A stretch of 64,000 nt of DNA from Raillietiella orientalis. Its lineage: Eukaryota. The DNA lies in assembly GCA_036172245.1 (NCBI GenBank), contig JAYWIR010000012.1, forward strand, positions 310,001 to 374,000, given 5' to 3'. Below are positions 457-48,080 of this stretch, piece by piece. Numbering within the stretch: the stretch's first letter is position 1; every line of letters begins with the position of its first letter. A model generated the notes under the pieces. That model did not search any database. It was not told the origin of the DNA and worked only from the letters and a program-made list of their open reading frames with translations. Made by a program: the position numbers and the translations under genes.

Positions 457-2432
457 CTGCAATACAAGAGTGTGTGAGTGTGAATTCATATTATGAAAGC
501 TAGCAAGCACATACCAAACAACTGCACCACAGCATGTGAAGATCCCAGTTTATTGGATGCTCGACATGTATAATTGCCGTATTGACGCTTTTCCACGGTG
601 ATAACTCGTAGAGTACTTGCAGTAAATTGGTCAGCAGTGGCAAAATTGGAGATTCTATACAGGCAAATAAGAAATGTTATATTCACTGTTCTACCTGTAA
701 TGCTGGTTGTTGCTCAATTGAAAACCTTCTTTATGCCATGAAATGGATGGGCTAGGATAAGCTTCCACATGACATACAAGGTCCATGTCATAGTCTGCAG
801 CTTGACCCACACGTGGATGGGGTGTAGTCACCACAGGGGCAAACTCAACTTCAAGTGCAACATTGCGACGAATACCCCTGCCCACTCCATTTTCTGCCAC
901 ACAGTAATATGTGCCACGATCCTCTTTTTTCACTGAATACACAGACAGAACAGAGCCCCGGTAAATGGCACCACCAGTAGGCAATACAGCTGTATTTTCT
1001 CTCCGCCAAGAGATGCGGGCTTCTGGGAATCCTGAAGCATAACACTCCAGCTTTACTGACTGACCCTCAGATACAATCACTGAGCGTGTTGAATTATCAG
1101 ATATAACAGGGGGACGGCGCACTCGAATGTATGTGTTGGCACTGATTCCATTTTGCAAAGAGAGGACAATGAGGCACTGATACACTCCTGCATCAGATTC
1201 TTGCAAGTCCTTGATCTAAAATCCATCAGTCAGAAGTCCTTGTGGACAGAAAATGACTCCATACCTGCAGCACATAGGAAGAAGATCCTGAGTCATAGCG
1301 TAAGGAGAATCGGTTATCCCTTATCAACAGTGAAGGACCTGATGAGATGGTAACGGCATCAGAACCACGGGAATTCTGCTGCTGATCCACTTTGACCCAA
1401 TACACAGGGTAATCTTGCACGTGTTGAGCAGAGCATTCTAGCTGCACTGTGGAGCCAATGTCCACTATTTTCTCAGGAGAGATGTAGGAGATGCTTGGAC
1501 TTCTTTGTGGTGAGGCTGGAAAGACACACTCTCCGAGGTTTTGGAAGAGAGCCACGGTGGGGGAGGTCACAAAAGTGATGCCAAAAGACACGAGGGATGC
1601 TCTGCTTGGCATGATCTGCCACTTGCGACGGATTGGAATCCTCTCCGGATTCCCTCAGGCAACCGGCCATGGTTCCCTCTCCGACTTGGCTGCACCAGAG
1701 CAACAGCAGCTTGTTTGCAAACGGTGGATGTATCCGAGATGCCTGCACGCAGCACGACCAAGTACGGCACGTTTTTGCTGAAGTAGGCTCTGGCTGCTGG
1801 GGTGACAACACCTTCCCTTGTGAGCTTCTACACGTCCTCGAGGCCAGATGCATGCGATGCAGAGAGAACGGAGCCGTGGTCACATATGTGCATGTATGTA
1901 CACGGCCGTATCTGCGCACGTGAGCAAGGACCGGATGCCTCCTAAGCGCGCCTTTGCCGCTCCCAGGGTCCGGTGGCCAAGTGGTTTCTGACGATCGTGA
2001 TGTTCAATCGTGCAGACGTGGTGCATCCATGGAGAAGGGTGTCCTTTGCTCTTTTGCCGTTGTGATGCATGCATCCGTGGTTTCGTCGACACGGCGGCGT
2101 CGGCTCGTGCAGCTCGCAGGCTTTGGCTAGACCGTGCGAGCTTGTCGTGTTTGGCGACACGAAAACACGCCCGGGAGGACGAGGACGCTTTTTGCTGCGT
2201 GCGACGCTGGCAAATCCCGTTCTCTCCCGAATCGAACGCCCAGCATATGTGTGCATTGCAGCCAGAAGACAGACACGCGGCGAAGGAGGCTTTCGGCCGA
2301 CACTGCATTCCGGTGCCCGCGGGGCAGAAGGGTGGAACGGAAAACACTGCACTTACCGAGGTGAACAAGGCTCAGGAGTACGAGGTACGCGACCCGCGTA
2401 CAGGAGGAACGCTTCGATGAAACCAACGGCAT
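332..2432 (-). CDS. Lac: Lachesin (three-Ig-domain, GPI-anchored cell adhesion protein), 370 aa; join(complement 2357-2432, 1265-1515, 695-1215, 515-654, 332-456)
   Basis: Spliced translation MPLVSSKRSSCTRVAYLVLLSLVHL-ASPQRSPSISYISPEKIVDIG...RRPPVISDNSTRSV...EFAPV...DMDLVCHVEAYP...ETFVPVCPPAC...LSTILCIALVILNWHS* is collinear with insect Lachesin as I recall it. All four introns are GT-AG with consistent phases (1,0,2,1); total 1113 nt. N-terminal signal peptide and hydrophobic C-terminal tail. Confidence 0.93.
515..654 (-). CDS. Lac: Lachesin exon 4 (Ig3)
   Basis: ISNFATADQFTASTLRVITVEKRQYGNYTCRASNKLG; acceptor GTATAG, donor GTATGT. Confidence 0.93.
695..1215 (-). CDS. Lac: Lachesin exon 3 (end of Ig1, Ig2, start of Ig3)
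   Basis: IKDLQESDAGVYQC...ECYASGFP...DRGTYYCVAENG...NNQHY; acceptor TTTTAG, donor GTAGAA. Confidence 0.94.
1265..1515 (-). CDS. Lac: Lachesin exon 2 (Ig domain 1)
   Basis: QRSPSISYIS...VQLECSAQ...RFSLRYD...YVLQ; acceptor TTTCCAG, donor GTATGG. Confidence 0.92.
2357..2432 (-). CDS. Lac: Lachesin coding exon 1 (signal peptide)
   Basis: ATG at 2432-2430, 25 codons plus 1 nt, then a perfect G|GTAAGT donor; phase matches the TTTCCAG| acceptor at 1516. Confidence 0.8.
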
Positions 2433-4561
2433 GCTGCTGCACTTCACTTACGCCTGCTCGGTGTGTCGTGCATTTCCACAGCCCAAATCTTCACGCATCG
2501 GCACAGCTTCCGCAGTGACTCTTCCTCCAAGAAAACAAACACAACACTCAGGTGTGTCCGCGGCAGCTCGCTGCGGCTCACCTTCGCCGCCGCTTGCGTG
2601 CAGCTGAACAACATGGTACCTGCCTGCCACTCGCGGGCTCCCCAATTCGTGATAGAATTCCATCCACACGGGTATGTTCGATGGCTTTGGTTGGCTCTTT
2701 TTGGGGAAGATTCAGCCTTCGCCCCTTATTTCGGGGATTCTCTTTCTTTCTTTTCCTTTTCTCCCGGCTGCAAACGTTTGATTTTAAATAATGTATGCAG
2801 TCGGTTCAAGGTTGGGAAAGTAGCAAGAATTTCGGTTTCAGTTTTATAGGTCTGCCAACTATGAAGCAATATCCGGATACAGCGACAAGAAACTTCCAGT
2901 GTCGTTAATCTTTGTGAGACGAAAGCGTAGGGATCGCTTGAGATCTGTATTTTAATCACTTTAAAATCACCTGTTGCTGAAGTCTGCAGACTAAAACCTG
3001 CTGTAATGAACTAGCAAGAAGTTCTGAAGAAAAAAAAAAATGCTTTTTTTTTTTTCTTCTTATATTTTGTTGCATCAGAGTCTAACGTGAGTGCATAGAT
3101 TTCTTCGTACACATTTCTGTTTTACTAATTGTACATCTAATGAAACATAAAGTGCTTGTGTTTCTTATCTGGATGTTTTTGTTTTGTTACTTCACTAATA
3201 TACCTTATTTGTATCTGAAATATGTACACAGCGTATCTTTCATATTTGCATATGAGAATTTAGATTTCATTCAAACATATACGAATAACTCTGATATGTT
3301 ATAAAAGTGTGTTGATATTAAAAGAGCGATGCTTCCTTCAAATGCTCCATTTTAGATTGGAAATAAAGACTACCCAACTTTCTGACTTAATTCTTTACAA
3401 GGGTGAAGTTCTTCAAAGAAAATAAATAAAAATAAAATGTACAATAAAGCAATTCCCAGATTACCACTCGGCAGACAGAATGAATTCTCACTTTATCAAC
3501 GACATTTTTCAAAAACATTATGAAATCTTCATAAGAGACATTCAAGTGTATCATAACGTGAACAGTAATTGACGGTATGTGATAAGGTTTTCTTCGAAAC
3601 ACCTGGAAAAAAAATATGTAGCAGGTAATGAAAATTTCTGCCCACTATTTCCCGTTTCAAATAATCAAGTACATTGAAAAATTGAAGTATATGGTAGGTT
3701 GCACGTACATCTTTCTAGAGACAGGAAGACTAGAGTGTACAATTATTCCATCTACACGCTGGCGATCGTTTATGTAATTTACAGAAATACGACGCAATTT
3801 GATGCAAACTTTTCGTTTCTTCGGCGGTACACATCTTCAAAAACGACAGTTTAACCTGTGTACGCAAAAAAAAATCAAATCTCCTTTCTGAATGGATTTG
3901 CTATTTACATATTTGGCTCGCGAATCCTTCTGCACCTGCAAATAGTTTATGAAATACTATAGCTTCTATTAGCTTCCTAATGTTACATAACGCCCTTACT
4001 CTCTCTCCGAGTTGCCATCATCATCTTGAGTCTCAGTCAGATGAAGATCATGCAAATTCACAAACATTCCCGAGTATCTCACCAAACGTTAGGTGCACTC
4101 AGCATTGGACCTACTTCCGCGAAAGTATATTTGAAGCTGTTCACATCACATTCTTTGTATTCAGCAGTTTTAAAGAGAGGATACGTTGATTTTGGTAACA
4201 TTTTCATATTTGGTAACATTGTAAAGCCTAAGGCACTTTTCATGCTGCACGTCTTTAGTTTGCTATGCTTTCTCATGAGGCGCTCTGTACCTAAATCCAT
4301 GAATCATCTCGTGAATGCTTCTCCGCCTGCCTGCATAGTCTGAAAGTGAGGCTACACGTATCCAAGTTGAGTGAATACCTGGAGGAACTGGTTAGTACAA
4401 AAACAGTTTTGCAAATCTCTGGAATCCGGGACATTTGTTCCTATCTAGGGCATCTAGATACAAACAGATGCCCTAGGGCACTGTTTCTAGTGCATATATG
4501 TAGTCATGAAGGATATTTCCAGTAATCCAGTGCTTAGAAATCGAAGATTTCGATTCGTTTT

Positions 4562-8180: not shown

Positions 8181-8577
8181 TACTTTCGTTACCGTGGTCT
8201 CATTTCTCTTAGCTGCTCTGTGGATTTTCCTTTCTTTCTTTTTCGCTTTTCAAAGCAGCAACCAATAATTCGTTTTCTGATAGCTCAGAGATCTCAATCT
8301 TGAAAGCCACTCTTCGCAGCTTCCATTGAGACGATGACGTTTTGCCTACAATTGGAATGCATCCATAAGTCCGATGCTTACTTGCTGCATCTGGTTCATC
8401 TTCCACTGTACAGGAAATTTGTTGTATTCTACAATTTTTGAGATGTTTTCTGATCGGAGATGCATCTTTCACTGCAATGTATTTTTTCCTTTCTTAAAAA
8501 TCATCCCTTAATCGCTTCACTATGTGCTAAACTGTTGAACTCTTCACTCACAATACTCCCATTCACTTGGTTATTAA

Positions 8578-8934
8578 CCTGTTAAGAGAGTTTGACGTGT
8601 ACACATGCGTTTTGTAAAGGCTCCAATGTGGAGCGTTTGACGAATATACACGCCGTGCGAAAAAGCAAAGATTACCCTTCGCCATGAAAATACGAAATTT
8701 TAGTGAAAAATTGACGCAATCTCATTTTAATGTGTACTTTACTTATATTCTGATCGGGACTGCAATGTGCAATGACCTTAATTTTTCATCAAAACATTTT
8801 TGAAGTGATGGCAACCAAACAAAAAATTCTTTCTTTTTACATACTGGGTTTTGTTTACAAACTTTGTACATACTGGGTTAATTGGAGATTTAATTGAGGA
8901 AAATAATAATTGGCAAAAAAGACAGAATATGGTC
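8578..8934 (+). mobile_element. piggyBac left end (truncated)
   Basis: TTAA (8574-8577) followed by TIR CCTGTTAAGAGAG; about 90% identical to 27538-27873. Confidence 0.85.
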
Positions 8935-9950
8935 CACTCCTCCTTTAACTTTTACTGGTCTTCCTTTGTGTTCCTTTGTGTAGAAAGCAAATACAACATA
9001 TGACTTTCTCAGCTGTCTTCTTTCATGCCTTCTTCTAAGAAGACGTTCTTGATAAGATTTTTTCTTCATAAAAATATCTTCATAACCAGAACTCATCTCG
9101 AACTCCCAGATAACCGTGCACAGTCTTTTTTTTTCTCCACAGAAGATTGTCTTCGTCTTCTGCATCCACGGTTGCGATTCTTTCTGATCAAAGCAATGGA
9201 TGCTGAGAGTCGAATGCTCCATTTCCCTTTTCCTTCGATGAGATGGACGTTTCTCAAGCAGATTCTTTGATGTGTGGATCTCCCCATCAACTTGGTCAGA
9301 CTAGCCAGTTCGGAAAAGATGTAGAAGGTTCACATTCCAGCCCCTGAAGAGGATTTCCTAGAAACTTAGTCTTCTTAGAGACATCGACCCCACTGTTCTG
9401 CTGCTGAATGTTTTCAACAGCGGATTCGCTTTTCGGCCTTTTGGATAAAATCAAAAGTGTTGAATGCTTTCAGATACGACAGCAGTTCTATTGGCTTCAT
9501 GTAGCTTTCCGTCGCATCTGCAGGGTTCTTATTTCTGCTTATCCACCACTTGAATATTCTCTTGGCTTCTGACTCGCATTGTTCAATCACCTCAGCATAC
9601 AAAGGCATCTCATGTGTCAAGGTTTTTGAGCAGGAGCCAACTCTCTGACATGATTTCGCGCTACTTCGTTCCGTACCTCGTCCTCTCGTCGCTTGCAACT
9701 ATCAACTGCATCGCAAGTCACCCACTGGCAACCAGTTTCCTGATCTACTGGGACGCGCTGCGGATTGCTCCGAGAGTTGCTTTTGCAGTCGTACTCCATT
9801 TATCCCTGATGTTTTGTCTGAGAGGATCACGAGCACTCCAGACTAAGCTAAGAAGCATGGTAAATGCGACGGGGATTACCAAACTTGCGATGGAGATTTC
9901 TAAGATCCAAGGTTTTCCCGTTCTGCTGAAAACTCACACGAGACCTTTGG
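8935..9950 (-). mobile_element. possible BEL/Pao gag relic
   Basis: LRNLHRKFGNPRRIYHA (DUF1759-like), P.ELLSYL, and a downstream KKRLC Cys/His remnant; decayed. Confidence 0.35.
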
Positions 9951-13259: not shown

Positions 13260-14260
13260 TATCAAAATCGCGTATGTAGAAACCTCGAAAGATCATTAAG
13301 ATCATTAAAATATATATTAAATATACAAACAAATATATATTAAATGTGCTTATTATATGTATTAGTAAATGCATTCCTATATAGACTGAGACAAAAATTT
13401 GTTTTAATATAGATATTTATTAATGTTTAACAAACGTATTAACATTAATAGTATTTAACACATGTATTTACTGGTACTTAGTAACAATATTATTAATATA
13501 ATTAGTAATATGTGTTAATATACTTGTTAATATATAAAACATAAATGTATACGTTTATTATATATATGTGAATAATAAATGTGTACTAAACCAATGTATA
13601 ATTATCGAATTACAAAAGAAACCGCGGTGACAAAAATAGCGGAAAAAAATGAAAAGGCAAAAAAGTTTAAGAAACCCCTCAAAAAAATTTGGTATTACGT
13701 TTTCCCATCATCTGTAACACTGAATAAGTGAAAATTTCTCAGGAAATGACGAATTCCATTTTCAGGATTTTGATCGCTTAATGAATATATATTTTTATAA
13801 TTCAATATCTACATATTCATTTCATATTTATTTATAATATGTATAAATGCATATTGACATATATAATAAACATATATATTTAGTTTTTATGATCTTCCCA
13901 ATATATATTAATAATATATATTATTACGTATCATTAATTCAATTAATATATATGTGTGTTAAAATAAGTTTGCACACGAGTCTATATACATACACACATA
14001 TATATATATGAATAATAGGAATATATATTTATTTTTTATAATCCCAAAGATATTAATCTATTATCAATTTATATACAATAAACATATCTATCTTGATATC
14101 TACAATAAATACACACACCTATTCATAATTTTAGTGATATATTAATTTATAATCTGAATGATAATAATTTATATTTGAATATATATATCTCAATATGCAT
14201 AATAAGCATATTCATTTCTTTTTTATGAACTTTCAAGATTTCGATGTTCGGGATTTTGGT
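13260..14260. mobile_element. AT-rich foldback/MULE-like non-autonomous element, copy 1
   Basis: AAAATCCCGAA-type termini in inverted orientation; shares a ~170-bp core (13630-13800) with copies 2 and 3; AT-rich inverted arms. Confidence 0.7.
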
Positions 14261-16843: not shown

Positions 16844-18078
16844 AAGCCATCGAACATACCCGTGTGGATGGAATTCTATCACGAATTGGGGAGCCCGCGA
16901 GTGGCAGGCAGGTACCATGTTGTTCAGCTGCACGCAAGCGGCGGCGAAGGTGAGCCGCAGCGAGCTGCCGCGGACACACCTGAGTGTTGTGTTTGTTTTC
17001 TTGGAGGAAGAGTCACTGCGGAAGCTGTGCCGATGCGTGAAGATTTGGGCTGTGGAAATGCACGACACACCGAGCAGGCGTAAGTGAAGTGCAGCAGCAT
17101 GCCGTTGGTTTCATCGAAGCGTTCCTCCTGTACGCGGGTCGCGTACCTCGTACTCCTGAGCCTTGTTCACCTCGGTAAGTGCAGTGTTTTCCGTTCCACC
17201 CTTCTGCCCCGCGGGCACCGGAATGCAGTGTCGGCCGAAAGCCTCCTTCGCCGCGTGTCTGTCTTCTGGCTGCAATGCACACATATGCTGGGCGTTCGAT
17301 TCGGGAGAGAACGGGATTTGCCAGCGTCGCACGCAGCAAAAAGCGTCCTCGTCCTCCCGGGCGTGTTTTCGTGTCGCCAAACACGACAAGCTCGCACGGT
17401 CTAGCCAAAGCCTGCGAGCTGCACGAGCCGACGCCGCCGTGTCGACGAAACCACGGATGCATGCATCACAACGGCAAAAGAGCAAAGGACACCCTTCTCC
17501 ATGGATGCACCACGTCTGCACGATTGAACATCACGATCGTCAGAAACCACTTGGCCACCGGACCCTGGGAGCGGCAAAGGCGCGCTTAGGAGGCATCCGG
17601 TCCTTGCTCACGTGCGCAGATACGGCCGTGTACATACATGCACATATGTGACCACGGCTCCGTTCTCTCTGCATCGCATGCATCTGGCCTCGAGGACGTG
17701 TAGAAGCTCACAAGGGAAGGTGTTGTCACCCCAGCAGCCAGAGCCTACTTCAGCAAAAACGTGCCGTACTTGGTCGTGCTGCGTGCAGGCATCTCGGATA
17801 CATCCACCGTTTGCAAACAAGCTGCTGTTGCTCTGGTGCAGCCAAGTCGGAGAGGGAACCATGGCCGGTTGCCTGAGGGAATCCGGAGATGATTCCAATC
17901 CGTCGCAAGTGGCAGATCATGCCAAGCAGAGCATCCCTCGTGTCTTTTGGCATCACTTTTGTGACCTCCCCCACCGTGGCTCTCTTCCAAAACCTCGGAG
18001 AGTGTGTCTTTCCAGCTTCGCCACAAAGAAGTCCAAGCATCTCCTACATCTCTCCGAAGAAAATAGTGGATATCGGCT
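16844..18078 (+). pseudogene. inverted partial duplicate of the Lachesin 5' end (255 bp upstream, exon 1, intron 1, first 63 bp of exon 2)
   Basis: Reverse complement of 1453-2687. One mismatch found over 16844-18016 and six in 18017-18078; truncated by a SINE-like repeat. Confidence 0.95.
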
Positions 18079-31900: not shown

Positions 31901-32214
31901 GCCGTCCTGGAGTGCACTTGCAGTCCTCCCCCCCTCCTCATTCCTTCTAGCGTCGGCACGTCGGAGCCGGCGTCCCGGCGCGGAGCCGCCCAGTCTTTGG
32001 GGCGGATCTCGTAGGTCCAGGATGATGAAGAGGCGGAAAAGGAAGGAGCAGTCACCTCCCTTCCGCCTGCTGCATCCACGAGCAGCTGGTCCGACACGTT
32101 CAGCGTCCTCGCGCCCGCGAAACCACTGGCTGGGCAGGAATGACTGATTTCCCCCTCGCAGCTGGCCACCCTGGACATTCGGCGCTTTGGCGACGGGCAT
32201 GGGTCCGTGTTGGC

Positions 32215-32392
32215 CGGCACCCGTGTTGGCGGTCGTGCGGCTGCGGCCTAGGCGTGCGGCACCAGGCAGGCATCGTGGGTTCGAATCCCACCCGGGGGAA
32301 GTATCGACTCCGACAAATGGGTGGATACGTCGTGAGTTTCGAGTCCCCACGCAGGACGACGCTGGTTGGCCTCTTCAGGTTTGCACTGGTTG
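32215..32392 (+). mobile_element. SINE-like repeat, 5' part (best tRNA-like head)
   Basis: TGGCGGTCGTGCGG A-box-like motif and a perfect T-arm/B-box GTGGGTTCGAATCCCAC. Confidence 0.8.
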
Positions 32393-33105
32393 ACACCCGG
32401 TCACGCCGAGGTGTTTATTTATAAAATAAACATAAACATCTGCAGCAGGACATTTGATCCTGCCACGTTACCTATAACTACGAGAAGGAACCTGCCGGGG
32501 ACTGGCCCGTAGGCCAGCAGGGTCGCCTCGGAAGCACAGGAGAGGGGGAGACGAACAAAAAGAAAACAAAGCAAAACAAAAAACATGCATTCAGAAAATG
32601 AGGGTCGGAGAGGGAAGGGGGGGGGTCGAGAAGGGATCACTGTGTGCTGGAGGATGTCCTCTGCATCCTATGCAGAATGCTGGCAAGTTCCTGTTCCAAG
32701 ACTCCCAGATGGGGCCATCTTGATGCTATTCTCACGAAGAGGACAGCAAAATAGATGGCGTGCCTGTCGTTCTGGCCTCCTCTGGCGTTGCTCCATGCAG
32801 TCACGGTCCCACCCCGCACAGTGCTGCTAGGGATGCGGCCGGCGTGAGGGCTTCTCACAGGAAGAGGCGCTTCAGAACGTCTCTGGGATTGCCCTCGGGG
32901 ATCCGCAGGGACGCAGCGAAGCATTCTCACATGGGGCGGAGGGCAACACACTGCATGAGCAGGGGAGGGAGGAACCCTCTCTCGCCGCACCTGCCGCAGT
33001 TCGGGTCCCCGCCCCACCTTCCGTGTCCAATGATGCCGGCGGGAGTTGCACGGGAGGCCCCAGTGCAGCAGCAGCAACGCTGACCCCAGCCACTTTAAGG
33101 GGAGG
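32393..33105 (-). mobile_element. LINE family A 3' portion
   Basis: LHWGLPCNSR...VRIASRWPHL, 3' hairpin, terminal motif; 32258-33105 is about 99% identical to the reverse complement of 45568-46416. Confidence 0.85.
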
Positions 33106-33399
33106 TTGCGGAAATCCCCTTAAAGCCCTTTTCGGGGTGGTTGGGTTTTGACTGTCGGCCAGGGACAGTGCGAAACAGGATGATGATGTGATCGGGGATG
33201 GGATGATGGAAATTCCCTTGGGATACTTCTGTTTCGCTGCTTTCCTTCTCAAGGAGAGCTAAGGAACAGTTCGCAGTCTTGGGAGGAAGCTCACGAAGCT
33301 CTTCAACCCTTCGAGTGCTATGGGCACATCCGTGCGTCTGGAAAATATGCTCGCGACAAAAGTTACCACTATCCATGTTTTTCCCAGTCCGATGGGGGT

Positions 33400-35207: not shown

Positions 35208-35878
35208 CAGGGTTGCCAACCGAAGTTAATGGAATCCTTCTAGATGGCCTTCGAAAACCCGAGACTCCCCCTCCCCTCCCTAAATCCCCAGATTTTAGTA
35301 CCTAGGAATTCACATTATTATACTATTAAATCATTTAATGTCGTTTGATCTTCCCGTTCGCTAGTGGCAAACATAAAAGGCAAACCGACAGGGTGTCACG
35401 TGACATTCTATGCCACGAATCTTCTTCTTCTGCTGCTGCTGCTGCTGCTGCACTGCCGGTCTCATTCCCCACTGCTGAAAGGAAACGTTGGAGCAGACTG
35501 CAAGTTGCAAGGAAACACTCAAACGAATTGCCGCCGCATTACAGAAATCGCAATTTCAACATTCGAATAAGGAAAGAAAAAGTCTTTTCCCTCGGCAGCC
35601 TTCATCAGAAATGGAAAAATTTGCTCATGCGACTCCACGCCCGCCAAGACGGAAACTTTAGGGGGATAAAGTATCCGGAACTCTATTATTTAAGACTACC
35701 TACTACATCCACAACTGAAAATTCTCTTTGCAGCATGAAAAACCCGTAAACTTGGGTGGACGGCGGACGTTCCCAAACCTCCAGAATTCCCGCTCGGCGG
35801 GATGCAACATTTTCAGCCGCTGGATGGGTCTCTAAGAACGCGAGATGTAGCGCGGAAACCGCTAAGTTGGCAACCCTG
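35208..35878 (+). mobile_element. non-autonomous hAT element (MITE), 671 bp
   Basis: Perfect 13-bp TIRs CAGGGTTGCCAAC/GTTGGCAACCCTG and an 8-bp TSD ATTCTAAG (35200-35207) / ACTCTAAG (35879-35886). Confidence 0.88.
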
Positions 35879-36129: not shown

Positions 36130-36605
36130 GTGATCAAGATTGTCGAGGAAAAGGGATTTTTTTTCCCTTATTCGAATGTTGAAATTGCGATTGCTGTAAT
36201 GCGGCGGCAATTCGTTTGAGTGTTTCCTTGCAACTTGCAGTCTGCTCCAACGTTTCCTTTCAGCAGTGGGGAATGAGACCGGCAGTGCAGCAGCAGCAGC
36301 AGCAGCAGAAGAAGATTCGTGGCATAGAATGCCACGTGACACCCTGTTGGTTTGCCTTTTATGTTTGCCACTAGCGAACGGGAAGATCAAACGACATGCT
36401 GGACGTGATATAGTGGACTTCAATACCTCGTTTTAAGTTATTAGGCGTCTTCTCTATTATTTTTATTCATTGCTTCATGCTAATAATAACAAGCATAATG
36501 AGAACGAATTCCTGGGTATTGAAATCTGGACATTTTGGGGAGGAGAATAGCGGATTTTCAAAGACCGTCTAGGGGGGATTCCATTAACTTACGTTGGCAA
36601 CCCTC
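36130..36605 (-). mobile_element. truncated inverted second copy of the hAT MITE
   Basis: Begins AGGGTTGCCAAC..AAGTTAATGGAATCC; 36166-36397 is about 98% identical to 35338-35572. Confidence 0.85.
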
Positions 36606-37719: not shown

Positions 37720-38210
37720 GCGCGTGTGGCTCTTCAAGTTAGGGGCACCTCAGGGTGGGGGGGGGGGGGGGAACCACCACCCTATAAATCCAGAAAGGCT
37801 CTGGGGTCCGTTCCCTTTACGCTTGGGAGGGAACCTCTTCCTTGTTCCTCGTCCTCTGAAGAGAACCCCGAAGGGAGCAGCACACTTCTTAACATTCTGG
37901 AGAAGCGATTCCCAAGGAGAGTGTCGACCAGCTCGCATGGAACGGCTCTATCTTCACAGCCGGAGGGGCTCCTTGATTCCTGGAAGGAACCCGGAGGATC
38001 GGCTTTTAATCCAGGCCACTCAACGGGGGCACCGCTTTCGTAGTCGCGCATCCGAAGCCAGCAGAGGACAACCAGCATCACCTTGCGGGGGGGTAGAAAC
38101 CAACGACGCATCTCCCGTTCTTGGAGTCGAACGTTCCCCGGGCGGGATTCAAGATAGCGACGTTCGGCTCCAGGCATGGAGAGGCGGCAGCCACGCGGCC
38201 GCCAGCGCGG
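37720..38210 (-). mobile_element. SINE-like repeat copy
   Basis: Spans from the head (about 38210) to the CCTAACTTGAAGAGCCACACG end (37723). Confidence 0.75.
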
Positions 38211-39399
38211 GCCGTTTGGGTCAGCGGTGAGTTTCTCGAGCGCGAGCGTGTCCTGTTTAAGCCCGAAATGGCAGCCATCTTTAACCGAGGGCGTAAAGAG
38301 GCAAGCGGCGTCAGTCGATCTAATTTTCAGCGGCTCCCCGCGGACACCTAACGAGATGAGAAAAACTGCTGGGCTTGTCTATGGTGCGCCACACTGGTAA
38401 CCTCACCCTGGCGAACTTAGACCCCTGCTGTGCGCATCTTGATTCTTCTTTGGCCATAGTCGATGTTTGCTTTCAGCTGGGATTTTCGGGAGCAGGTTGG
38501 TCAACACAAGAGGAAATTCATTTCTTTCATGTCTTTCGAATCTGAGGTGGGTGGAGTTTCTGAAGGGAATCCAAGGCCAGTCGTTTTCGATCACCGCGGC
38601 ACCCTATGAACTGCACACTCCGGATTCGATTTCGACGCGACGCGATGCGCCTCTTCGGATGCTGTGCAGCCATTCCCGACCAACCTACCGTTTCCCGTTT
38701 TCCATGTGCCAAGCGCAGCGAAGCCGGGGACCCTCCCAGATATGCGCGACGCGTTTCCTTCTCCCACTTTCTGCACTTCCCTCCAGGGCATTCAGGATTT
38801 TCTCGTGATGCCGACGCTTGCCAGCCGAAGACGTCGGCGACTCGCGGACGGCCGGCTTCTTGCAGGCCATGCAGTCCGGCCTGGGAACTCGGGAAGCCAC
38901 GCTGCTTTTTGACCGTCGAGAATTGCGAGTTGCACGTGCACTGGTAGCTGCCAGCAGCCGCACCTCGGTATCGGTGGGTGGCGTTTCGCAGATGGGGGCA
39001 GAAGAGATGCGGATTCCCTTTCTCCTGGCTTCTCCACGGAAAGTTCTCATCATAATGGTTGGTGTCTGATCTCAAAGAAGTCTGTCTCACGCTCACGAAG
39101 GGTAGCTCGCCGCTAGAACGTAGTATAACCAGTGGCACGAAAGCACTCAATGCCATGCCGACCAAATCTAAAAAATCCAGAGAGTTTGAAGATCTTGAAA
39201 AATGAACCACCCAAAGTCGATACCCCCCGGATAGAAGTTGAGTGTCCGGGATTAAAAGTCGATCCTCCGGGTTCCTTCCAGGAATCAAGGAGACCTTCGA
39301 TGCTGCCATTCCCAGTCCTGATGATGTACCTGAGATGCTTGCTGAAATGTACCTGCATCTGGGATGTGGTGAAAGAGCATGAGATGAAAAGCCGCAACC

Positions 39400-40200
39400 T
39401 CCTCTGAGTGACAGCTGGGTACGACGTTGTTGAACCAACTTGGTACACATAGAAGAAGGATGGCGAAAGACATGAGTAGCTCTTCACCACTGCCTTGGCT
39501 GAGATCACCTTCAACGGGTTCGAAGCGTTTTACAGCGTATGCCGTGAAACCGAAAGCCGTCTCGGATTCTTAAGCATCGATGGTCACCGAAACGGCCCGG
39601 ATTTGTCGCTCGTTTTGCCACATCTTGAATGTTCGAGCAAAGTGTTGCTGTTGCATGGAAAAGAAACAGATATCGGAAAGAATTTTCTCAGTAGCCATAC
39701 CTACCCAGATACGCCAATGTTTCGAAGTACTATCTACGCCACGACTGCACAATAAAAGCCAGAAGACCTATAAATAACTTCGTGCACCAACACTGACAAA
39801 GTCCTAAACAAAGACTGGGTTGCATCTTGCAGGATGTAAACAGTGACTCGAAAGCCATTGGAAAAAAAATAATAATAATAAACACATAGCTTCTGACGAT
39901 TTTTCTTCGAATGCTGATGTGGAAATAGTCGGTCTTTCTGGGAGAGTGTTCTGCCAAAGGTGGATTTTTTTTTTCTTTCAATCTTTTTGTTAATGTCATA
40001 TAATCTGTTGATGCCAACCATTTTAAAATAAATCTTGGAGAGCACATAACTCAGAGAACATTCGCCGATACTCACAGAAACGCAAACCAATCACTAAACC
40101 AATCAGCCCACTTCTGGACATTTCGCTGCCAATTATTTCTGCCTATTTGAGGAACCGAGTGGATTTACCAGCATAACAGGAGAAAAAGAACTGCATCTGC
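39400..40200 (-). mobile_element. DIRS/YR-retrotransposon-like RT relic
   Basis: KWLASTD, DYFHISI...RSYVF, LGLCQ..CTKL and LAYLG occur in order, resembling DLKDAYFHIPI / PFGL..AP..FTKL / YLDD. Confidence 0.45.
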
Positions 40201-40720
40201 AACTCCGCATAGAATGTTTGCTTTGCGAGTTCAAAATGAGCGGCCATAAATAAATCTCTCAGTGTTACTCTTTTAGAGTCTTCAACGACTGCCCTAAAAA
40301 CGTAACCATGAGCCACCATGAACAACACACACCCTATCACCCCCATTCCTCCTCCTACTAGCCTTCCACTTACAATAACCCTTATATCACAAATTGAAGA
40401 ATGAGCTATAATTACCTTAAAGCCTACTGTGCCGAAAACACAGTGAAACCCCTTATTACACCTCCCACTACCCTTATTCCTACCAAATAAATCCCTATAA
40501 TCCTATACCTAGGTTTCCTAAATAACCGTACCCAACTACAACATAACCCCCGCAAGAACTTTGAACCATAAAAAAGATTCCACATGAGCCTTAGGAGGCC
40601 ACAAATGTACCCCAGGCACTGGCGAGTCCTCAATAAAAATGCTCCAACCAATCTCACCCCTTCCATTCCTTCCACTTTTCCTCTACCATTCTCGCGATTT
40701 GAGCCCATATCTATTCCAAA

Positions 40721-40849
40721 GGTGGGTTGGGTTCAAAATCCCGAAAGATCTCGAAAATACGTTTATTGTTCTAGATGTTGATATATAAATTTATACAGAG
40801 ATTACTATATGTCGCAAATATTATAATATATACATATATAATATAATTA

Positions 40850-40881
<32 letters not shown>

Positions 40882-41841
40882 TAATATGCAAATTTATTTT
40901 AACATTTATTGACACACGTATTATAAGCATAGTTAACAATGTGATTATTACATGTACTTATATATATAGACTAATATATATCATTAAGATTACGAGAAAT
41001 TAATGCAAGGCTAAGTTATTGTAAGCTTTACAATATGTATATTAATACATAAGTTAATGTATAGATTAATTATATGGATTGATAAACAAACTTATTTCAA
41101 CATACACATTCATTAATATAATTAATAATAAACATCAATATATATTGTTAACATATATAGTATGGAGATTATAACACGTGTTTATTAAGCACATTCATGT
41201 ATATTGATATACAAAAAGTATATATCAAATGAGTATAGGAATATCGAACATAAACATGAATACTATATATGTAATAAACGTACACTAAGTGAGTGTATAA
41301 ACGCCGAATTTTAAAAAACGAAAAAAATAATGGTGGCAATTGAAAATGGTGGAAAAAGCTGAAAAGGCAAACAAACTAAAAAAGCCCAAAAAAAAGTTGG
41401 CATTTCGTCTTCCTGTCACTTCCAACAATCCGTAAACGAACCTTTCTCAGGAAATGACGAATTCTGTTTTCGGGATTTTGATCGCCCGATAAATATACAT
41501 GTTATATATTCATTGCATATGCATCTATTACATGTGTAAATATGTAGTAACATATATAATAAACACACGTATTCATTTTTTATAATCGTCAATAATTTCT
41601 ATATTAATAATATCTATAATAAAATAAATATGTATGTAATTAAATATTAATAAACGTGCATCTTAAAATAAATTTGTACATTAGTCTATATATAAATATG
41701 TATATTAATTGACATAATAAGCACAGTATTTATTTTCATAGTCTTTATAATATACATTAACGAGTTGATCCATGTATACATTTATTTGTCAGTGTATATG
41801 ATATTTATTTCTAAGTTCTGGGATTTCGAACCCAATTCATC
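40721..41841. mobile_element. AT-rich foldback/MULE-like element, copy 3
   Basis: TIR TTGGGTTC(A/G)AAATCCC at 40727 and 41835; shared core around 41340-41500. Confidence 0.8.
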
Positions 41842-42519
41842 AGGTCAACTTCACATAGGTATTTCTTTGTATCTCAACCTTATTGTAGAGCTGTAGGAGG
41901 TGTTAAAAAGCACCCTAATGATTGCTAATTTGAACACACATTCGGTTGCCGGTCAGGCTCAGCTGGAATTCAGACAGAACCGAGTGCTCCCTCTTTTGCG
42001 GCCGTCATGCTTTCTAAGAAAGGTCACGATTTTGCCCAGTTTCCCCGTGGGTCCGTTTCCTCGTGCTTGGCCGGAGTCGACGAGAAGCATGCTGTCAGCC
42101 TGGGCAGCGGCTGCTGGATAGGCAGCTGAACATGTTGTGGGGCTTTTGGGGAAAGAAGTCCTTCCGGTCTTAGGAACTCTTCGTTTTTGTTCAGTCCTCA
42201 GAAAAATATGCGGTCGTGGAGAAGTTGGGCACCATCGTGAGGCAACCGGAGAAGTTCAGAAGTATCTCCCTCTTTCTCCTCTTCTCCGGAGCAGGACCCC
42301 ATCTCGAACAACTTGGTTCGCCCCATCCACCGGCCCTTGTTTTCTGTTTACGAGCCCCGGGCAAGAAACGACAGTTGCCTACCAGCGGGGTGGGAACTGC
42401 ATCACAGCACTGCAGGAGCGACCACACTTCCGGCGGCTGGAGGGCAGGTGAGCCGTGGATGGCGTCACTCCTCGTTCTCAAGAAAAGGGACTCCTCTGGC
42501 GCAGTGATCTGCTCGGTTT

Positions 42520-43110
42520 AACATCCCGTAACGCCGGGGCGTTTATTATAAAAAACAAGAAACGTATAGTGTAGGGCCATCGGCCCTACATCGTCCGAAA
42601 ATGTTCGGAACCTGCCGAGTAACCTGCACACAGGCCGGCGAGGTTCGCCTCGGCAACGGAGGGGCAAAAAAAAATAAAAATCAATAATAAAAAAAAATTG
42701 GGTGGGCGCGGGAAAGGATCGCTGCCTTCTGGAGGGCGTCCTCTGTACCCTTTCCAGGATGCTGGCAAGTTCCATCCGAGTATGTCCCAGGTGGGCCCAT
42801 CTTGCTGCCGTCCTCACGAAGCGCAGGGAGAAGCAGATGGCGTCCCTATAGCGCCGTCCTCCTCTCGCGTAGCTCCAGGCCTCCACAATCCCACGTGGGC
42901 AGCAAAGAGCTGCTAGGCATGCGGCAGGAGAAAGGGTTCGCGCACGAAGAGGTGCTTCATCACGTCCCTCGGATTATCCGTTGGTGCACCAACCACGAGC
43001 ACCAAGAGCCAATGCGTAACGCAACCACAGGAGCCGGAGAGCAGCACAGTCTACAAGCGGGTGCGGGAGGGATTCTCGTTCCCCACACCTGCAACTGTTG
43101 GGGTTGGTGA
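42520..43110 (-). mobile_element. LINE family A 3' portion
   Basis: VRTAARWAHLGHTRMELASIL; core about 97% identical to the reverse complement of 47668-48030. Confidence 0.85.
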
Positions 43111-43119
43111 CCTGCCTGG

Positions 43120-43797
43120 TGTGACCCCCGAAGAACTCGTAGTCCCTCCCCTGTGTGCAGACACTACGATGCCTCCTCTACCGTGGAATCGAAATGTTCT
43201 GCTGTTTCTGGGGTGTTTTCCAAACTGTTTGAGGTGCGGGGAGGTAGAATCGTTCCCACGTCTGCTGTTGAACTGTAATAGCTTTGGAGGAGGCTGGATT
43301 CAGAGCTCCTAAATCCCGAAGACACTTTGAAGGGATCGCCGAGGCGGTTCTTCGCAAGAGGTTTTCACGACGGGCATCGTGATTGCGACGACATGTTTGT
43401 TGCATCCGCGCCATCGTCACAGCCCTCCATGCGCCGGAGTCTCGTTCGCAGCGAAAGGAGACCACCAGCATGGTCGTCGCATTGATGAGGACGGCTGCAT
43501 GGTGGTCTCACCTTCCAGAAGTCATCAGAGAGGTCGTCATCGTCCTCCCCAGCCGCTTCTAGGAAGAAAGAAACGAATGAAACCAAAGACTCCTGTTCCT
43601 ACCTTCTCGCCTTTTTCCCCCTTCTTTTATTATCCCTTCCCCATGTTCCCTACTTCCCTAGAAGTCGGTCTATTTGCCGGTGGTCATCGCCAATGAACTT
43701 GTCTTTTTTTTTCTTTTTTGGCATCTTTTGTATTTAGGGAACACTGTTCCCCTGATTCATGGTTTATTTTTAAATAAACGTCCCGACGTGACCGAGT
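43120..43797 (+). mobile_element. LINE family A 3' portion
   Basis: PNCLRCGEVESFPRLLLNC finger, RTAAWWSHL, 3' hairpin, terminal motif. Confidence 0.75.
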
Positions 43798-43829
43798 ACC
43801 AATCCATTGTTCCAAAAATAATGCGGAAG

Positions 43830-44800: not shown

Positions 44801-44849
44801 CCCGTGTCCGCATGTCCATTCAGGATTCTGTATAAATAACTGAACTCCT

Positions 44850-46283
44850 AGAAGCCGCTATGGTTCGAGGTTCTTCTCCACAAGAGAAGGTTTGTCTGGA
44901 AACCCTTCTGGGTTCTGCTTTCGCTGCTTTCCTTCCAGCTCTTTTTCCTTTCGATGGAGAGAATGGAGATGCAGCTACAGTTTCGGAGACTCGCCCTCAT
45001 GGCAAACCTATGTAACACCATCTGGTGCCAACCTACACGTCTTCTCGTCCAGCAAGCCACAGGCACCGTGGGACTTGCGTCCTTGAGCGCCGTCCATGCA
45101 GTCTCATCCACGGTGGACTGCACCTGCGGCAGGTGACCACGCTGGCCAGGAACAACGGGTGGATCTCGTGCTGCCCCGCTAATGGAATTGCCTGGTTGCA
45201 GGGAACCGTTCGCAAGTGGGCGAGGAGCCAGGAGCCAAGCTCAGAACTGGTGCGAGAGGCTTCCTGTACGCGCGCAACAACTGCACGCTCCGGGAGATCC
45301 TGGAAGATCCCGTGAAGAGTGCGTGGGCAAGCAGGACCTTCCTCGCCGCCTCTCTGCCCTACCTTAGGGAACACATGGGCAACAACAGATGGGAGGTCTC
45401 CGTGGAGATCTCCGAAAGAAGGAAAGGACTGGCGAGTGGACGACGGGTCAGCTCACCGACGCTGCGACCCTGATTGCTCGACCCCATGCATTTTTGCACT
45501 GCGGTGTGCCACTGGGTATTCTAGAAAAGGACACTCAGTGGCCTCCGGTGCTCATGAACATCCACACCCTCCCTTTAAAGTGGCTGGGGTCGGCGTTGCT
45601 GCTGCTGCACTGGGGCCTCCCGTGCAACTCCCGCCGGCATCATTGGACACGGAAGGTGGGGCGGGGACCCGAACTGCGGCAGGTGCGGCGAGAGAGGGTT
45701 CCTCCCTCCCCTGCTCATGCAGTGTGTTGCCCTCCGCCCCATGTGAGAATGCTTCGCTGCGTCCCTGCGGATCCCCGAGGGCAATCCCAGAGACGTTCTG
45801 AAGCGCCTCTTCCTGTGAGAAGCCCTCACGCCGGCCGCATCCCTAGCAGCACTGTGCGGGGTGGGACCGTGACTGCATGGAGCAACGCCAGAGGAGGCCA
45901 GAACGACAGGCACGCCATCTATTTTGCTGTCCTCTTCGTGAGAATAGCATCAAGATGGCCCCGTCTGGGAGTCTTGGAACAGGAACTTGCCAGCATTCTG
46001 CATAGGATGCAGAGGACATCCTCCAGCACACAGTGATCCCTTCTCGACCCCCCCCCCTTCCCTCTCCGACCCTCATTTTCTGAATGCATGTTTTTTGTTT
46101 TGCTTTGTTTTCTTTTTGTTCGTCTCCCCCTCTCCTGTGCTTCCGAGGCGACCCTGCTGGCCTACGGGCCAGTCCCCGGCAGGTTCCTTCTCGTAGTTAT
46201 AGGTAACGTGGCAGGATCAAACGTCCTGCTTCAGATGTTTATGTTTATTTTATAAATAAACACCTCGGCGTGACCGGGTGTCA
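44850..46283 (+). mobile_element. LINE family A 3' portion
   Basis: FRRLALMANLCNTIWCQPTRLL is homologous to FRMLALCANLWSTPWCAPARLL at about 15510; terminal motif at 46254-46280. Confidence 0.8.
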
Positions 46284-46455
46284 ACCAGTGCAAACCTGAA
46301 GAGGCCAACCAGCGTCGTCCTGCGTGGGGACTCGAAACTCACGACGTATCCACCCATTTGTCGGAGTCGATACTTCCCCCGGGTGGGATTCGAACCCACG
46401 ATGCCTGCCTGGTGCCACGCGCGGGGAGACTGCAGCAGCTACACAGCCTGCCTTC
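46284..46455 (-). mobile_element. SINE-like repeat, 5' part
   Basis: GGGATTCGAACCCAC B-box complement. Confidence 0.8.
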
Positions 46456-46459
46456 ACAA

Positions 46460-48080
46460 GGTTCTCCTGTGAAGACAAAAGGACGCCGAACCACGATGGC
46501 ACCAGCGGCAGTCCGGCCTAGCCAAGCAACTGTCCTCTGGTGCATTCGTGCCAGTGACCCGACTGTGAGATAGCGCCTGTTGCGGGACGCTCAAGATGGC
46601 ACGGAAGATCGGAGAGGAGGCGGATGATCTCAGGCAGTCGCTCACAAAGGCAGCGAATGCACGGCGCGTGGGGGATCTCATCCTTTACCTCAGGAATGCG
46701 GATTCGATGTAGAAGATCCGTTTCCGGGAACCGTGGCGCGGGATGGGGATCGAAAGCGGGGAAGGAGGGGGAGGGGGAGCGACTGGCGGCAGCTGACTTT
46801 TCCATCGAACATCGAAGGGCTTCTTTCTTTTCCTGTCTCTTTATCTGCGGAAACCTTGATGATGATGACGATGACCGGGTACGAACGGCACGCTCGGGAT
46901 TCCAGCTGGAACGAACAGTCGCGCATGGTAGCCCAGCTAGCGTATGCGAGAGCGAGGACGTCGGACTGGGCATTCCAATGCCAGGACCAATAACTGGGAC
47001 TTCTACCGACCCGCGAACGGCAGTGTCTGGTTGCAGGAAACCGTTTGCACATGGGTCAAGAACAACGGAGCGAGCACGGAGATGCGGCAGCGACTGCTGC
47101 ACTCCTTCTACAACAACCGTTACCTGCAGGATGTCATCGTGCAGCCCACCACGTGTGTGTGGGCTGCACGATGGGCTCCCTAGCTGCGGTACTGCACTCC
47201 CTCAGGGAGAACTTGGGCAGTAACCAGCCGGCCAAACTGGGAAGTCAGTTGCGAAATAGCTCTTCGTACGAAGAAATTAGGTGGTTGAACCAGGGGCCTG
47301 CTCATGGACGCTGCGACCCCAAGTGCCCCACCGAAGGAACTATTGCTCTGGGACGAGATACTGGGAATCCCGCTGGAAGTCCCCGAGCGGAACTCCAGCG
47401 CTAAAGAACAGCCGGGCCCTCTCCCTGAAGAGGCAGGAGTCAACACTTCTGCTGTTGCACCGGGGTCTCCCGTGCAACTCCCGCCTCTCCCACTAAACCC
47501 GGGAGGCTGTGGACATCAACTGTTGCAGGTGTGGGGAACGGGAATCCCTCCCGCACCTGCTTGTAGACTGCGTTGTTCTCCGGCCCCTGGGGTTGTGTTA
47601 CGCAACGGCCCTTGGTGCACCGACGGACAATCCCAAGGACGTGACGGATCACATCTTGCGCGACTCTCTTTCTCCTGCCGCATCCCCAGCAGCTCTTTGC
47701 TGCCTACGTGGGATTGTGGAGGCCTGGAGCTACGCGAGAGGAGGACGGCGCTATAGGGACGCCATCTGCTTCTCCCTGCGTTTCCTGAGGACGGCAGCAA
47801 GATGGGCCCACCTGGGACATACTCGGATGGAACTTGCCAGCATCCTGGAAAGGGTACAGAGGATGCCCTCCAGAAGGCAGCGATCCTTTCCCGCGCCCAC
47901 CCAATTTTTTTTTATTATTGATTTTTATTTTTTTTTGCCCTTCCGCTGCCGAGGCGAACCTCGCCGGCCTGTGTGCAGGTTACTCGGCAGGTTCCGAACA
48001 TTTTCGCACGATGTAGGTCCGATGGCCCTATACATGTATGTTTATTTTTTATAATAAACGTTACGGCGTGACTGGGTGAT
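46460..48080 (+). mobile_element. LINE family A, RT C-terminus to 3' end
   Basis: GLGIP, CCRCGERESLPHLLVDC finger, 3' hairpin, terminal motif. Confidence 0.8.

What the first reader, a model, noticed from the sequence alone, without database searches (positions are those of the whole stretch)
1453..48030. Window-wide rule: the closest repeat pairs are all inverted, most with patchwork identity
Seen: five pairs, 1453-2687/16844-18078, 32258-33105/45568-46416, 35338-35572/36166-36397, 37969-38024/39237-39292 and 42572-42934/47668-48030, are about 95-99.9% identical and all inverted. Four are bordered by more diverged but still homologous sequence. Direct-orientation copies of the same families look only about 65-80% identical by eye, and the piggyBac pair about 90%. 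The pairs involve unrelated sequence classes (host gene, LINE, SINE, hAT) with spacers of 0.6-14 kb. Inference: a sequence-independent, orientation-specific homogenising process such as intrastrand conversion or template switching, or else selective deletion of near-identical direct repeats.
Basis: partly seen in the sequence, partly recalled or inferred. Interest (0 to 1): 0.8.

Follow-up and report, generated by a model that had tools for sequence, protein, structure and literature searches.

The report
Inverted repeat pairs homogenised by copying
Several old transposon copies and one gene fragment that lie in opposite orientation a few kilobases apart have had stretches of sequence copied between them, a known kind of event; that all the cases here are inverted is too small a sample to count as a rule.

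Summary
All five inverted pairs exist at the stated coordinates and identities (99.4, 99.1, about 98, 94.6 and 97.2%). Four are mosaics: a near-identical tract inside, or attached to, much more diverged homology. P5 has 10 of 363 differences in the core against 63 of 256 in the flanks. P3 has a 235-bp core at about 98% against about 71-77% in the flanks. P2 is an 855-bp tract that starts inside two independent SINE copies. In P1 all 7 differences fall in the first 189 of 1235 bp.

The partners are independent insertions (different truncation points, one with its own target-site duplication), so sequence was copied after insertion. That means non-allelic gene conversion or homology-anchored templated repair, at different times.

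The "rule" is not established. Homologous pairs in the window split 80 direct to 78 inverted, with equal identity distributions. Only 4 pairs (5 counting a 62-bp one) carry a tract, so all-inverted has P about 0.03-0.09, post hoc. Short exact repeats show no inverted excess (47 direct, 52 inverted).

No genome, reads or relatives were available, so genome-wide and raw-read tests could not be run. Homogenisation of inverted repeats is already well described. Modest interest.

The parts
1453..2687 (-). P1 copy A: upstream intron plus the first ~62 bp of an Ig-domain exon of the host gene (gene on the - strand; candidate splice acceptor AG ends at 1516). Probable original, because the exon continues to ~1229.
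16844..18078 (+). P1 copy B: inverted copy of A. It is identical to A over the part matching 1642-2687 (1046 bp). 6 of the 7 differences lie in the exon-derived 62 bp at its right end. It abuts the GA-rich tail of a SINE (18084-18466).
32208..32257 (+). P2 anchor: the 5' end of the recipient locus's own SINE copy. It is about 50% identical to the donor's SINE 5' end (28 of 57 alignment columns), and the flanks upstream are unrelated.
32258..33112 (-). P2 recipient tract (copy B): SINE head fragment plus a LINE 3' end (LINE on the - strand). 848 of 856 columns match the donor. It ends abruptly at 33112, with 4 of the 8 differences in the last 32 bp.
45561..46416 (+). P2 donor tract (copy D). 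It lies inside a longer LINE 3' fragment (about 45145-46287) that continues in register across 45561, which is why D is read as the donor.
35209..35877 (+). hAT-like MITE copy 1: 13-bp terminal inverted repeats CAGGGTTGCCAAC and an 8-bp target-site duplication ATTCTAAG/ACTCTAAG. It contains the P3 tract 35338-35572.
36131..36604 (-). hAT-like MITE copy 2 (partial, inverted). The tract 36166-36397 is about 98% identical to copy 1, while the terminal ~100 bp are 77% and carry an ~85-bp length difference.
37963..38024 (-). P4 arm inside a full SINE copy (37854-38212, - orientation).
39237..39298 (+). P4 arm: an isolated 62-bp SINE-internal fragment, 91.9% identical to 37963-38024 and 71-80% to four other SINE copies. 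Weak case.
42484..43100 (-). LINE 3' fragment C (5'-truncated at 43100). The P5 tract 42572-42934 is 97.2% identical to E; the flanks are 72-90% in 60-column windows.
46980..48116 (+). LINE 3' fragment E (longer copy). The P5 tract is 47668-48030.
8569..8944 (+). Control: the best direct pair. This is a piggyBac 5' end (TTAA at its start) matching 27527-27885 at 85%, evenly spread, with no high-identity tract.

Best explanation
These are four, perhaps five, separate events in which DNA was copied from one repeat into a nearby, oppositely oriented, already related repeat. The process is non-allelic (ectopic) gene conversion or, where one junction lacks homology, homology-anchored repair synthesis that ran past the shared sequence.

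Shown:
- The tracts are sharply more similar than the homology around them.
- The partners are independent insertions.
- The tracts differ in divergence: 0 of 1046, 4 of 824, about 1.3-2.6%, and 2.8%. They therefore arose at different times.

Inferred for each pair:
- P5 and P3 are classical internal conversion tracts between two LINE 3' ends and between two hAT-like MITEs.
- In P2, a break in the SINE at about 32250 was repaired from the inverted SINE+LINE at 45.5-46.4 kb. Synthesis copied 855 bp, bringing a LINE fragment that was not there before, and the end was then joined without homology at 33112.
- P1 is an old inverted duplicate of an Ig-exon start whose adjoining 1.05-1.17 kb of intron was copied or re-homogenised very recently.

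The all-inverted pattern is most simply either chance at n=4-5 or survivorship. Exchange between inverted repeats leaves both copies in place. Equally similar direct repeats a few kb apart are prone to collapse by single-strand annealing or unequal exchange (general knowledge, not tested here).
For: Identity steps:
- P5: core 10 of 363 differing columns against 63 of 256 in the flanks (Fisher p=7e-17). The step is visible in 60-column windows: 72-80%, then 97-100%, then 82-90%. The same core is only 42-78% identical between LINE copies C and B/D, so it is not a generally conserved LINE segment.
- P3: a 235-bp core with 3 substitutions and one 3-bp indel. The next 35 bp have 10 differences and the terminal ~100 bp are 77% identical.
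- P2: 8 of 856 differing columns in the tract against 29 of 57 in the SINE 5' part (p=9e-32).
- P1: all 7 differences lie in the first 189 of 1235 bp (p=2e-6), 6 of them in the 62 exon-derived bp (p=8e-8).

Independence of the partners:
- LINE copies are 5'-truncated at different points (33112, 43100, 45145 or lower, 46980 or lower).
- The SINE 5' ends and upstream flanks of the P2 partners differ.
- MITE copy 1 has its own terminal repeats and 8-bp target-site duplication.

Donor direction in P2: the donor's LINE continues in register across the tract end.

The differences look like real mutations: 16 of 24 are transitions and 9 of 24 are in a CpG context.

P1's edge looks old: 5 of 6 differing exon codons are synonymous.

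Literature: homogenisation of inverted-repeat arms, long and short, is described as a striking and often reported property (PMC8604942, introduction passages).
Against: - P1 has no homology outside the block and P2 has none at one end. Both could be plain recent inverted duplications rather than conversions of older copies.
- Starting identities of about 50-80% (P2 anchor, P3 and P5 flanks) are low for canonical homologous recombination (recalled knowledge). That fits microhomology-guided template switching better.
- No outgroup or second individual was available, so no event is polarised by phylogeny. The donor in P1, P3 and P5 is unknown.
- No raw reads were available, so the assembly is unverified.
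- All four tract-bearing pairs are inverted while 0 of 59 direct pairs of 100 bp or more carries a tract.
Confidence: 0.62

Rival explanations
1. There is a truly orientation-specific copying mechanism. One form is polymerase template switching between the arms of imperfect inverted repeats, which homogenises and extends the arms. Another is fold-back annealing of long resected single strands followed by mismatch correction. Either would act here over 0.5-14 kb and on any sequence class.
For: - 4 of 4 pairs with a 100-bp window at 99% or more are inverted, as is the 62-bp P4, against a 50:50 background.
- P1 and P2 look like arm extension: a diverged anchor, then a near-perfect tract, then an abrupt junction.
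- Differences cluster at tract ends: 4 of 8 in the last 32 bp of P2 and 6 of 7 in the last 62 bp of P1.
- Template switching between inverted-repeat arms is reported to homogenise arms (PMC8604942, abstract and passages) and to expand them (PMC13100816, abstract start in the search listing only).
Against: - P is about 0.03-0.09, chosen post hoc.
- Exact repeats of 14 bp or more outside the known pairs show no inverted excess (47 direct, 52 inverted) and no excess at short range.
- The template-switch cases in PMC8604942 involve arms of 7-16 bp and spacers of 70 bp or less, with shorter spacers favoured. That is orders of magnitude below 0.5-14 kb.
- P2 and P5 interleave (B-D and C-E cross), so they cannot come from one fold-back.
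- P2 added about 740 bp of sequence absent from the recipient, which mismatch correction of a fold-back cannot do.
Confidence: 0.17
2. No conversion took place. The pairs are simply young copies: recent inverted segmental duplications (P1, P2) and recent insertions from the same transposon subfamily (P3, P4, P5).
For: - P1 and P2 have sharp ends and very few differences.
- P1 occurs only twice in the window.
- P4 is just a short, more similar SINE piece.
Against: - P5 and P3 are mosaics whose element ends are far more diverged than their interiors. This is the reverse of what is expected of subfamilies, whose recognised ends are conserved (recalled knowledge).
- P2 is a composite of two unrelated elements, and its left junction keeps the SINE register with the recipient's own, different SINE 5' end. 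A random insertion would not do that.
- P1's differences are confined to one end.
Confidence: 0.12
3. It is an assembly or polishing artefact. Either repeat copies were over-corrected towards one another, or direct repeat loops were collapsed by the assembler so that only inverted near-identical pairs survive in the assembly.
For: - No reads could be examined.
- The window is a single assembly with 1-kb perfect repeats.
- One difference in P2 is a G9/G10 homopolymer length.
Against: - There are no Ns or gaps.
- The tracts carry 0.5-2.8% differences with a transition- and CpG-rich spectrum (16 of 24 transitions), and in P1 a synonymous-codon pattern. Polishing would not produce either.
- The unique spacers of 0.5-14 kb are assembled through.
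- P2 involves a structural insertion, not just base changes.
Confidence: 0.07

Closest known systems
Non-allelic (ectopic, interlocus) gene conversion between dispersed repeats and paralogues, including transposon copies (Alu-Alu conversion, PMC8230782 passages; Caenorhabditis paralogues, PMC3966223 passages)
   Same: Both show a tract of hundreds of bp with near identity embedded in older, diverged homology. The partners lie on the same chromosome within a few kb. The tracts include non-coding sequence. Events are of different ages.
   Different: - The published passages state that conversion occurs in both direct and inverted orientation; here only inverted cases are seen (n=4-5).
- The starting identity here is low (about 50-80%).
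- P1 and P2 have one non-homologous junction, which is not classical conversion.
Arm-to-arm concerted evolution of long inverted repeats and palindromes (recalled: primate Y-chromosome palindromes, hsp16 and hsp70 inverted pairs; hsp16 is cited in PMC3966223; 'long-IR homogenization' in PMC8604942)
   Same: Oppositely oriented copies are kept or made nearly identical while related copies elsewhere decay. In P1 identity drops at the edge of the homology block.
   Different: The arms here are short (0.2-1.2 kb) relative to the spacers (up to 14 kb). Most arms are unrelated old transposon insertions rather than one duplicated block. Recurrence of conversion is not shown.
Template switching between imperfect inverted-repeat arms (Ripley-type quasipalindrome correction; PMC8604942; PMC13100816 and PMC5453318 seen in search listings only) and its large-scale relatives FoSTeS/MMBIR (recalled)
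   Same: It is orientation-specific and sequence-independent, homogenises arms and can lengthen them. The P1 and P2 architecture (anchor, copied tract, abrupt return junction) fits two switches.
   Different: The documented short-range events involve arms of about 7-16 bp and spacers of 70 bp or less. No microhomology or inserted bases at the junctions could be established here. No window-wide excess of short inverted repeats was found.
Transposon-mediated rearrangements with chimeric elements at junctions (Alu/Alu-mediated rearrangements, recalled; PMC9675761 seen in a search listing only)
   Same: The left junction of P2 is a chimeric SINE: the recipient's 5' end joined in register to the donor's SINE body.
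   Different: The outcome here is an 855-bp inverted templated insertion 12 kb away, not a deletion, duplication or inversion of the interval.

Membership tests
Non-allelic gene conversion | A high-identity tract flanked on both sides by homologous but clearly more diverged sequence | tested here: met
   Met for P5 (10 of 363 against 63 of 256 differing columns) and P3. Met on one side only for P2. P1 has a gradient inside the block but no homology outside it. Not met for P4.
Non-allelic gene conversion | The partner copies predate the tract (independent insertions or an old duplication) | tested here: met
   LINE copies have different 5' truncation points. The P2 partners have different SINE 5' ends and flanks. 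MITE copy 1 has its own terminal repeats and 8-bp duplication.
Non-allelic gene conversion | Phylogenetic incongruence against orthologous copies in an outgroup, or a GENECONV-type test on a larger family | not testable with these tools
   No genome is held, no runs were listed, and two metagenome scans gave 0 matches.
Palindrome / inverted-repeat concerted evolution | Recurrent conversion over time between the same two arms | not testable with these tools
   It needs several individuals or species. The only hint is P1's diverged edge (6 of 62) next to a perfect interior.
Template switching between inverted-repeat arms | Restricted to inverted orientation | tested here: inconclusive
   4 of 4 (5 of 5) tract-bearing pairs are inverted against 78 inverted and 80 direct homologous pairs, P about 0.03-0.09. 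Exact repeats of 14 bp or more split 47 direct to 52 inverted.
Template switching between inverted-repeat arms | Short spacer, within reach of one replication fork | tested here: not met
   The spacers are 524, 1213, 4417, 12449 and 14157 bp. The cases in PMC8604942 have spacers of 70 bp or less.
Young insertions of one transposon subfamily | Even identity along the shared element, ending at element boundaries, each copy with its own target-site duplication | tested here: not met
   Mosaic identity in P3 and P5. P2 is a composite of SINE plus LINE. No terminal repeats or duplications are evident at the P1 ends on my inspection of the sequences printed.
Simple inverted segmental duplication | Even identity, with both junctions in unrelated sequence | tested here: inconclusive
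   P1's junctions are abrupt, but its differences are confined to one end. P2's left junction lies in register inside a resident SINE.
Assembly artefact | No support in raw reads | not testable with these tools
   No run could be listed. The indirect evidence is against it.

The most novel reading that the evidence does not exclude
In this animal genome, double-strand-break or fork repair copies sequence preferentially between oppositely oriented repeats up to about 14 kb apart. It does so whatever their class, even when they are only 50-80% alike, making and lengthening inverted repeats. Direct repeats of similar quality are not homogenised, or are lost. This would be a kilobase-scale counterpart of quasipalindrome template switching that continually builds long inverted repeats out of old transposons.
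Probability: 0.15. Interest if true: 0.65.

Novelty: new member of a known kind. Interest (0 to 1): 0.3.

Why it matters
The window shows that old, dead transposon copies in this genome still exchange sequence. This has three consequences:
- Divergence-based dating of these copies would be wrong.
- Near-perfect inverted repeats of 0.2-1.2 kb are created. These could mediate inversions or form double-stranded RNA. P1 places a perfect 1-kb inverted copy of an intron 14 kb from the original, beside an Ig-family gene.
- Repair synthesis can carry a LINE fragment into a new site without retrotransposition (P2).

If the all-inverted pattern held genome-wide, it would point to an orientation-dependent repair outcome worth studying. 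With one 64-kb window it remains an anecdote.

Tried and rejected
- Whole-genome search: no genome is held for this window.
- Two exact-pattern scans of metagenome contigs (a 30-mer from the P1 interior; a degenerate 36-mer for the LINE family): 0 matches each.
- Earlier notes of this scan: none for this genome or for look-alike sequence.
- Rfam at gathering thresholds and ARAGORN: 0 hits each. The tRNA-like SINE head is therefore recognised only by eye (T-arm-like GGTTCGAATCC).
- Pfam on 362 stop-to-stop frames of 80 aa or more (78 + 150 + 134): Ig domains in 2 frames (one at 24.3 bits, below Pfam's 30-bit cut-off) and piggyBac transposase in 1. There were also three sub-threshold hits (DUF1072, DUF1702, TOP_N), which I disregarded. 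No reverse transcriptase was found. 'LINE' therefore rests on the shared 3' end with variable 5' truncation and a conserved Cys-x2-Cys...His...Cys motif, which I recognise from memory.
- Protein Atlas on a LINE frame: no usable hit.
I used open frames instead.
- P1 as a transposon: rejected. I saw no convincing terminal repeats or target duplication in the ends printed, and there is no third copy.
- One large palindrome or a single inverted duplication covering P2-P5: rejected. The pair midpoints differ, and P2 and P5 interleave in the order B, C, D, E rather than B, C, C', B'.
- P5 core as a generally conserved LINE segment: rejected.
- Papers: PMC2950799 (Aleshin and Zhi), the paper most likely to report orientation effects for neighbouring Alus, is not held. 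PMC3790853 contains neither 'orientation' nor 'inverted'.
Full report
**What the window is.** It is 64,000 bases with no N and 50.2% G+C. No whole genome is held for it.

I ran Pfam on 362 stop-to-stop frames of 80 aa or more (78 + 150 + 134). It found three things:
- immunoglobulin domains in two adjacent minus-strand frames (694-1215 above Pfam's cut-off; 1229-1654 at 24.3 bits, below the 30-bit cut-off);
- a piggyBac-type transposase fragment (27918-28226);
- three sub-threshold hits that I disregard.

The nearest Atlas clusters to the Ig exon are animal Ig-superfamily proteins. The rest of the window is a field of old repeats:
- a ~390-bp SINE with a tRNA-like head, matched in 8 further places at 62-78% identity to the copy used as query;
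- a LINE-like family seen as five 3' fragments that share their 3' end, are 5'-truncated at different points, and carry a conserved Cys-x2-Cys...His...Cys motif (I read that motif as a LINE feature from memory);
- a hAT-like MITE;
- piggyBac ends.

| Pair | Coordinates | Identity | Spacer (bp) |
|---|---|---|---|
| P1 | 1453-2687 / 18078-16844 | 1228 of 1235, ungapped | 14157 |
| P2 | 32258-33112 / 46416-45561 | 848 of 856 columns | 12449 |
| P3 | 35338-35572 / 36397-36166 | 3 substitutions + one 3-bp indel in 235 bp | 524 |
| P4 | 37969-38024 / 39292-39237 | 53 of 56 (my count from the alignment) | 1213 |
| P5 | 42572-42934 / 48030-47668 | 353 of 363 | 4417 |

Direct copies of the same families are 60-73% identical. 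The best direct pair, two piggyBac 5' ends, is 85% identical and evenly so.

**The mosaics are real.**
- P5: the core has 10 of 363 differing columns and the flanks 63 of 256 (p=7e-17). The same core is only 42-78% identical between other LINE copies, so it is not simply a conserved segment.
- P3: the 235-bp core is followed by 10 differences in 35 bp. The element termini are 77% identical and differ by a length change of ~85 bp.
- P2: the tract (8 of 856 differing) begins inside the SINE head. Upstream of it, the two loci carry recognisably SINE-like but different 5' ends (29 of 57 columns differ) and unrelated flanks.
- P1: all 7 differences lie in the first 189 bp (p=2e-6), 6 of them in 62 bp, and 1642-2687 is perfect.

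It is not right for P1, where there is no homology at all outside the block (0 hits). It is also not right for P4, an isolated 62-bp SINE piece.

**What each pair is.**

*P5* joins two independent LINE 3' fragments. C is truncated at 43100; E runs back to about 46980.

*P3* joins two hAT-like MITE copies. Copy 1 (35209-35877) has its own 13-bp terminal repeats and an 8-bp target-site duplication (that 8 bp is typical of hAT is recalled).

Both P5 and P3 are therefore post-insertion exchanges with both ends in homology, which is classical non-allelic conversion.

*P2* is a composite of SINE head plus LINE 3' end. In the copy at 45.5-46.4 kb the LINE continues in register beyond the tract. In the copy at 32.2-33.1 kb the similarity stops dead at 33112. 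So the former was the template and the latter the recipient. One junction is a chimeric SINE and the other is non-homologous, and about 740 bp of LINE sequence was added to the recipient. Half of P2's differences (4 of 8) sit in the last 32 bp.

*P1* copy A is the intron upstream of an Ig exon plus the exon's first ~62 bp (candidate acceptor AG ending at 1516). Copy B is its inverted image 14 kb away, abutting a SINE tail. Of 6 differing codons in the exon part, 5 are synonymous. One of the five spans the putative splice site, so its reading is uncertain. This pattern, and the ~10% divergence of that edge, suggest an old duplicate whose interior was copied or re-homogenised recently. The numbers are small, and 3 of the 6 sites are in a CpG context.

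**Timing and authenticity.** Tract divergences differ: 0 of 1046 (P1), 4 of 824 (P2), about 1.3-2.6% (P3) and 2.8% (P5). The events are therefore separate. Of 24 substitutions in P1, P2 and P5, 16 are transitions and 9 lie in a CpG context. That is a mutational spectrum rather than an error spectrum. I could not check reads: no run was listed, and two metagenome scans found nothing.

**Is there a rule?**
- The sensitive self-comparison gives 158 homologous HSP pairs, 80 direct and 78 inverted, with the same identity distribution (Mann-Whitney p=0.80).
- Exactly four pairs contain a 100-bp window at 99% or more. All four are inverted. The fifth best is the direct piggyBac pair and the sixth is P4.
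- With an inverted fraction of 0.49-0.55, four of four has P of 0.06-0.09 and five of five 0.03-0.05.
- Outside the known pairs, exact repeats of 14 bp or more number 47 direct and 52 inverted, with no short-range inverted excess.

The window therefore does not establish an orientation rule, and it cannot exclude one either.

**Comparison with what is known.**
- A review of Caenorhabditis paralogues states that conversion occurs in direct and in opposing orientation, that relative rates are undetermined, and that one genome-wide study suggested more conversion in the same orientation (PMC3966223, passages).
- Two of three mammalian pairs homogenised for over 100 My are direct (PMC2720389, passages).
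- Homogenisation of inverted-repeat arms, long and short, is described as a striking and much-reported property. Template switching between imperfect arms homogenises them (PMC8604942, abstract and passages) and can expand them (PMC13100816, abstract start seen in the search listing only). The cases there have arms of 7-16 bp and spacers of 70 bp or less.
- For human Alu pairs, direct pairs are reported to be the more prevalent ones (PMC3670932, abstract). This runs against a general 'direct repeats are lost' expectation.
- Two earlier notes of this scan, on another genome, describe inverted transposon pairs homogenised by conversion and call them ordinary. I did not test them.

**Verdict.** The pairs and their patchwork are real, and they record repeated copying between nearby inverted repeats. 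P3 and P5 fit ordinary non-allelic conversion. P2, and probably P1, fit homology-anchored repair synthesis or template switching that lengthened an inverted repeat. Orientation specificity remains an open, testable hypothesis with weak support. The phenomenon belongs to a known kind.

Noticed in passing
window 694-1215 and 1229-1516, minus strand: Two adjacent Ig-domain exons of an animal Ig-superfamily gene (I-set/Ig_3 hits), apparently separated by a very short intron. The gene's upstream intron contains P1 copy A. If transcription starts beyond 18 kb, both P1 arms would lie in one pre-mRNA.
   Followed up: partly
window 1457-1516 vs 18015-18074: In the exon-derived edge of P1, 5 of 6 differing codons are synonymous, all by a third-position change. 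The sixth is Glu to Lys. This hints that the two copies diverged under purifying selection or at CpG hot spots.
   Followed up: partly
window 27527-28226 and 8569-8944: A piggyBac element end with a transposase fragment (DDE_Tnp_1_7, E=1e-16), and a second 5' end copy starting at a TTAA. They are 85% identical in direct orientation with no mosaic.
   Followed up: partly
window 40001-42000: An AT-rich island (32% G+C against ~50% overall). It overlaps copies of a repeat family also present at 13262-14222 and 25645-26577 (64-66% identical).
   Followed up: no
window 43120-43794, 50023-50757, 60333-60966, 15884-16645: A further unclassified repeat family at 60-64% identity with no Pfam hit. One copy directly abuts LINE fragment C, and another flanks P1 copy B.
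   Followed up: no
window 62431-62892: A run of overlapping direct self-matches (67-69% identical, offsets of ~130-260 bp), suggesting a degenerate tandem array.
   Followed up: no
window 35420-35450 and 36290-36320: Inside the P3 tract, a (TCT)n(CTG)n microsatellite differs by one 3-bp unit between the arms.
   Followed up: no
window 18084-18171 and 58931-59020: A GA-rich ~90-bp segment follows the SINE body in two copies (78% identical), so the SINE family probably has a longer tail than the ~390 bp used here.
   Followed up: no
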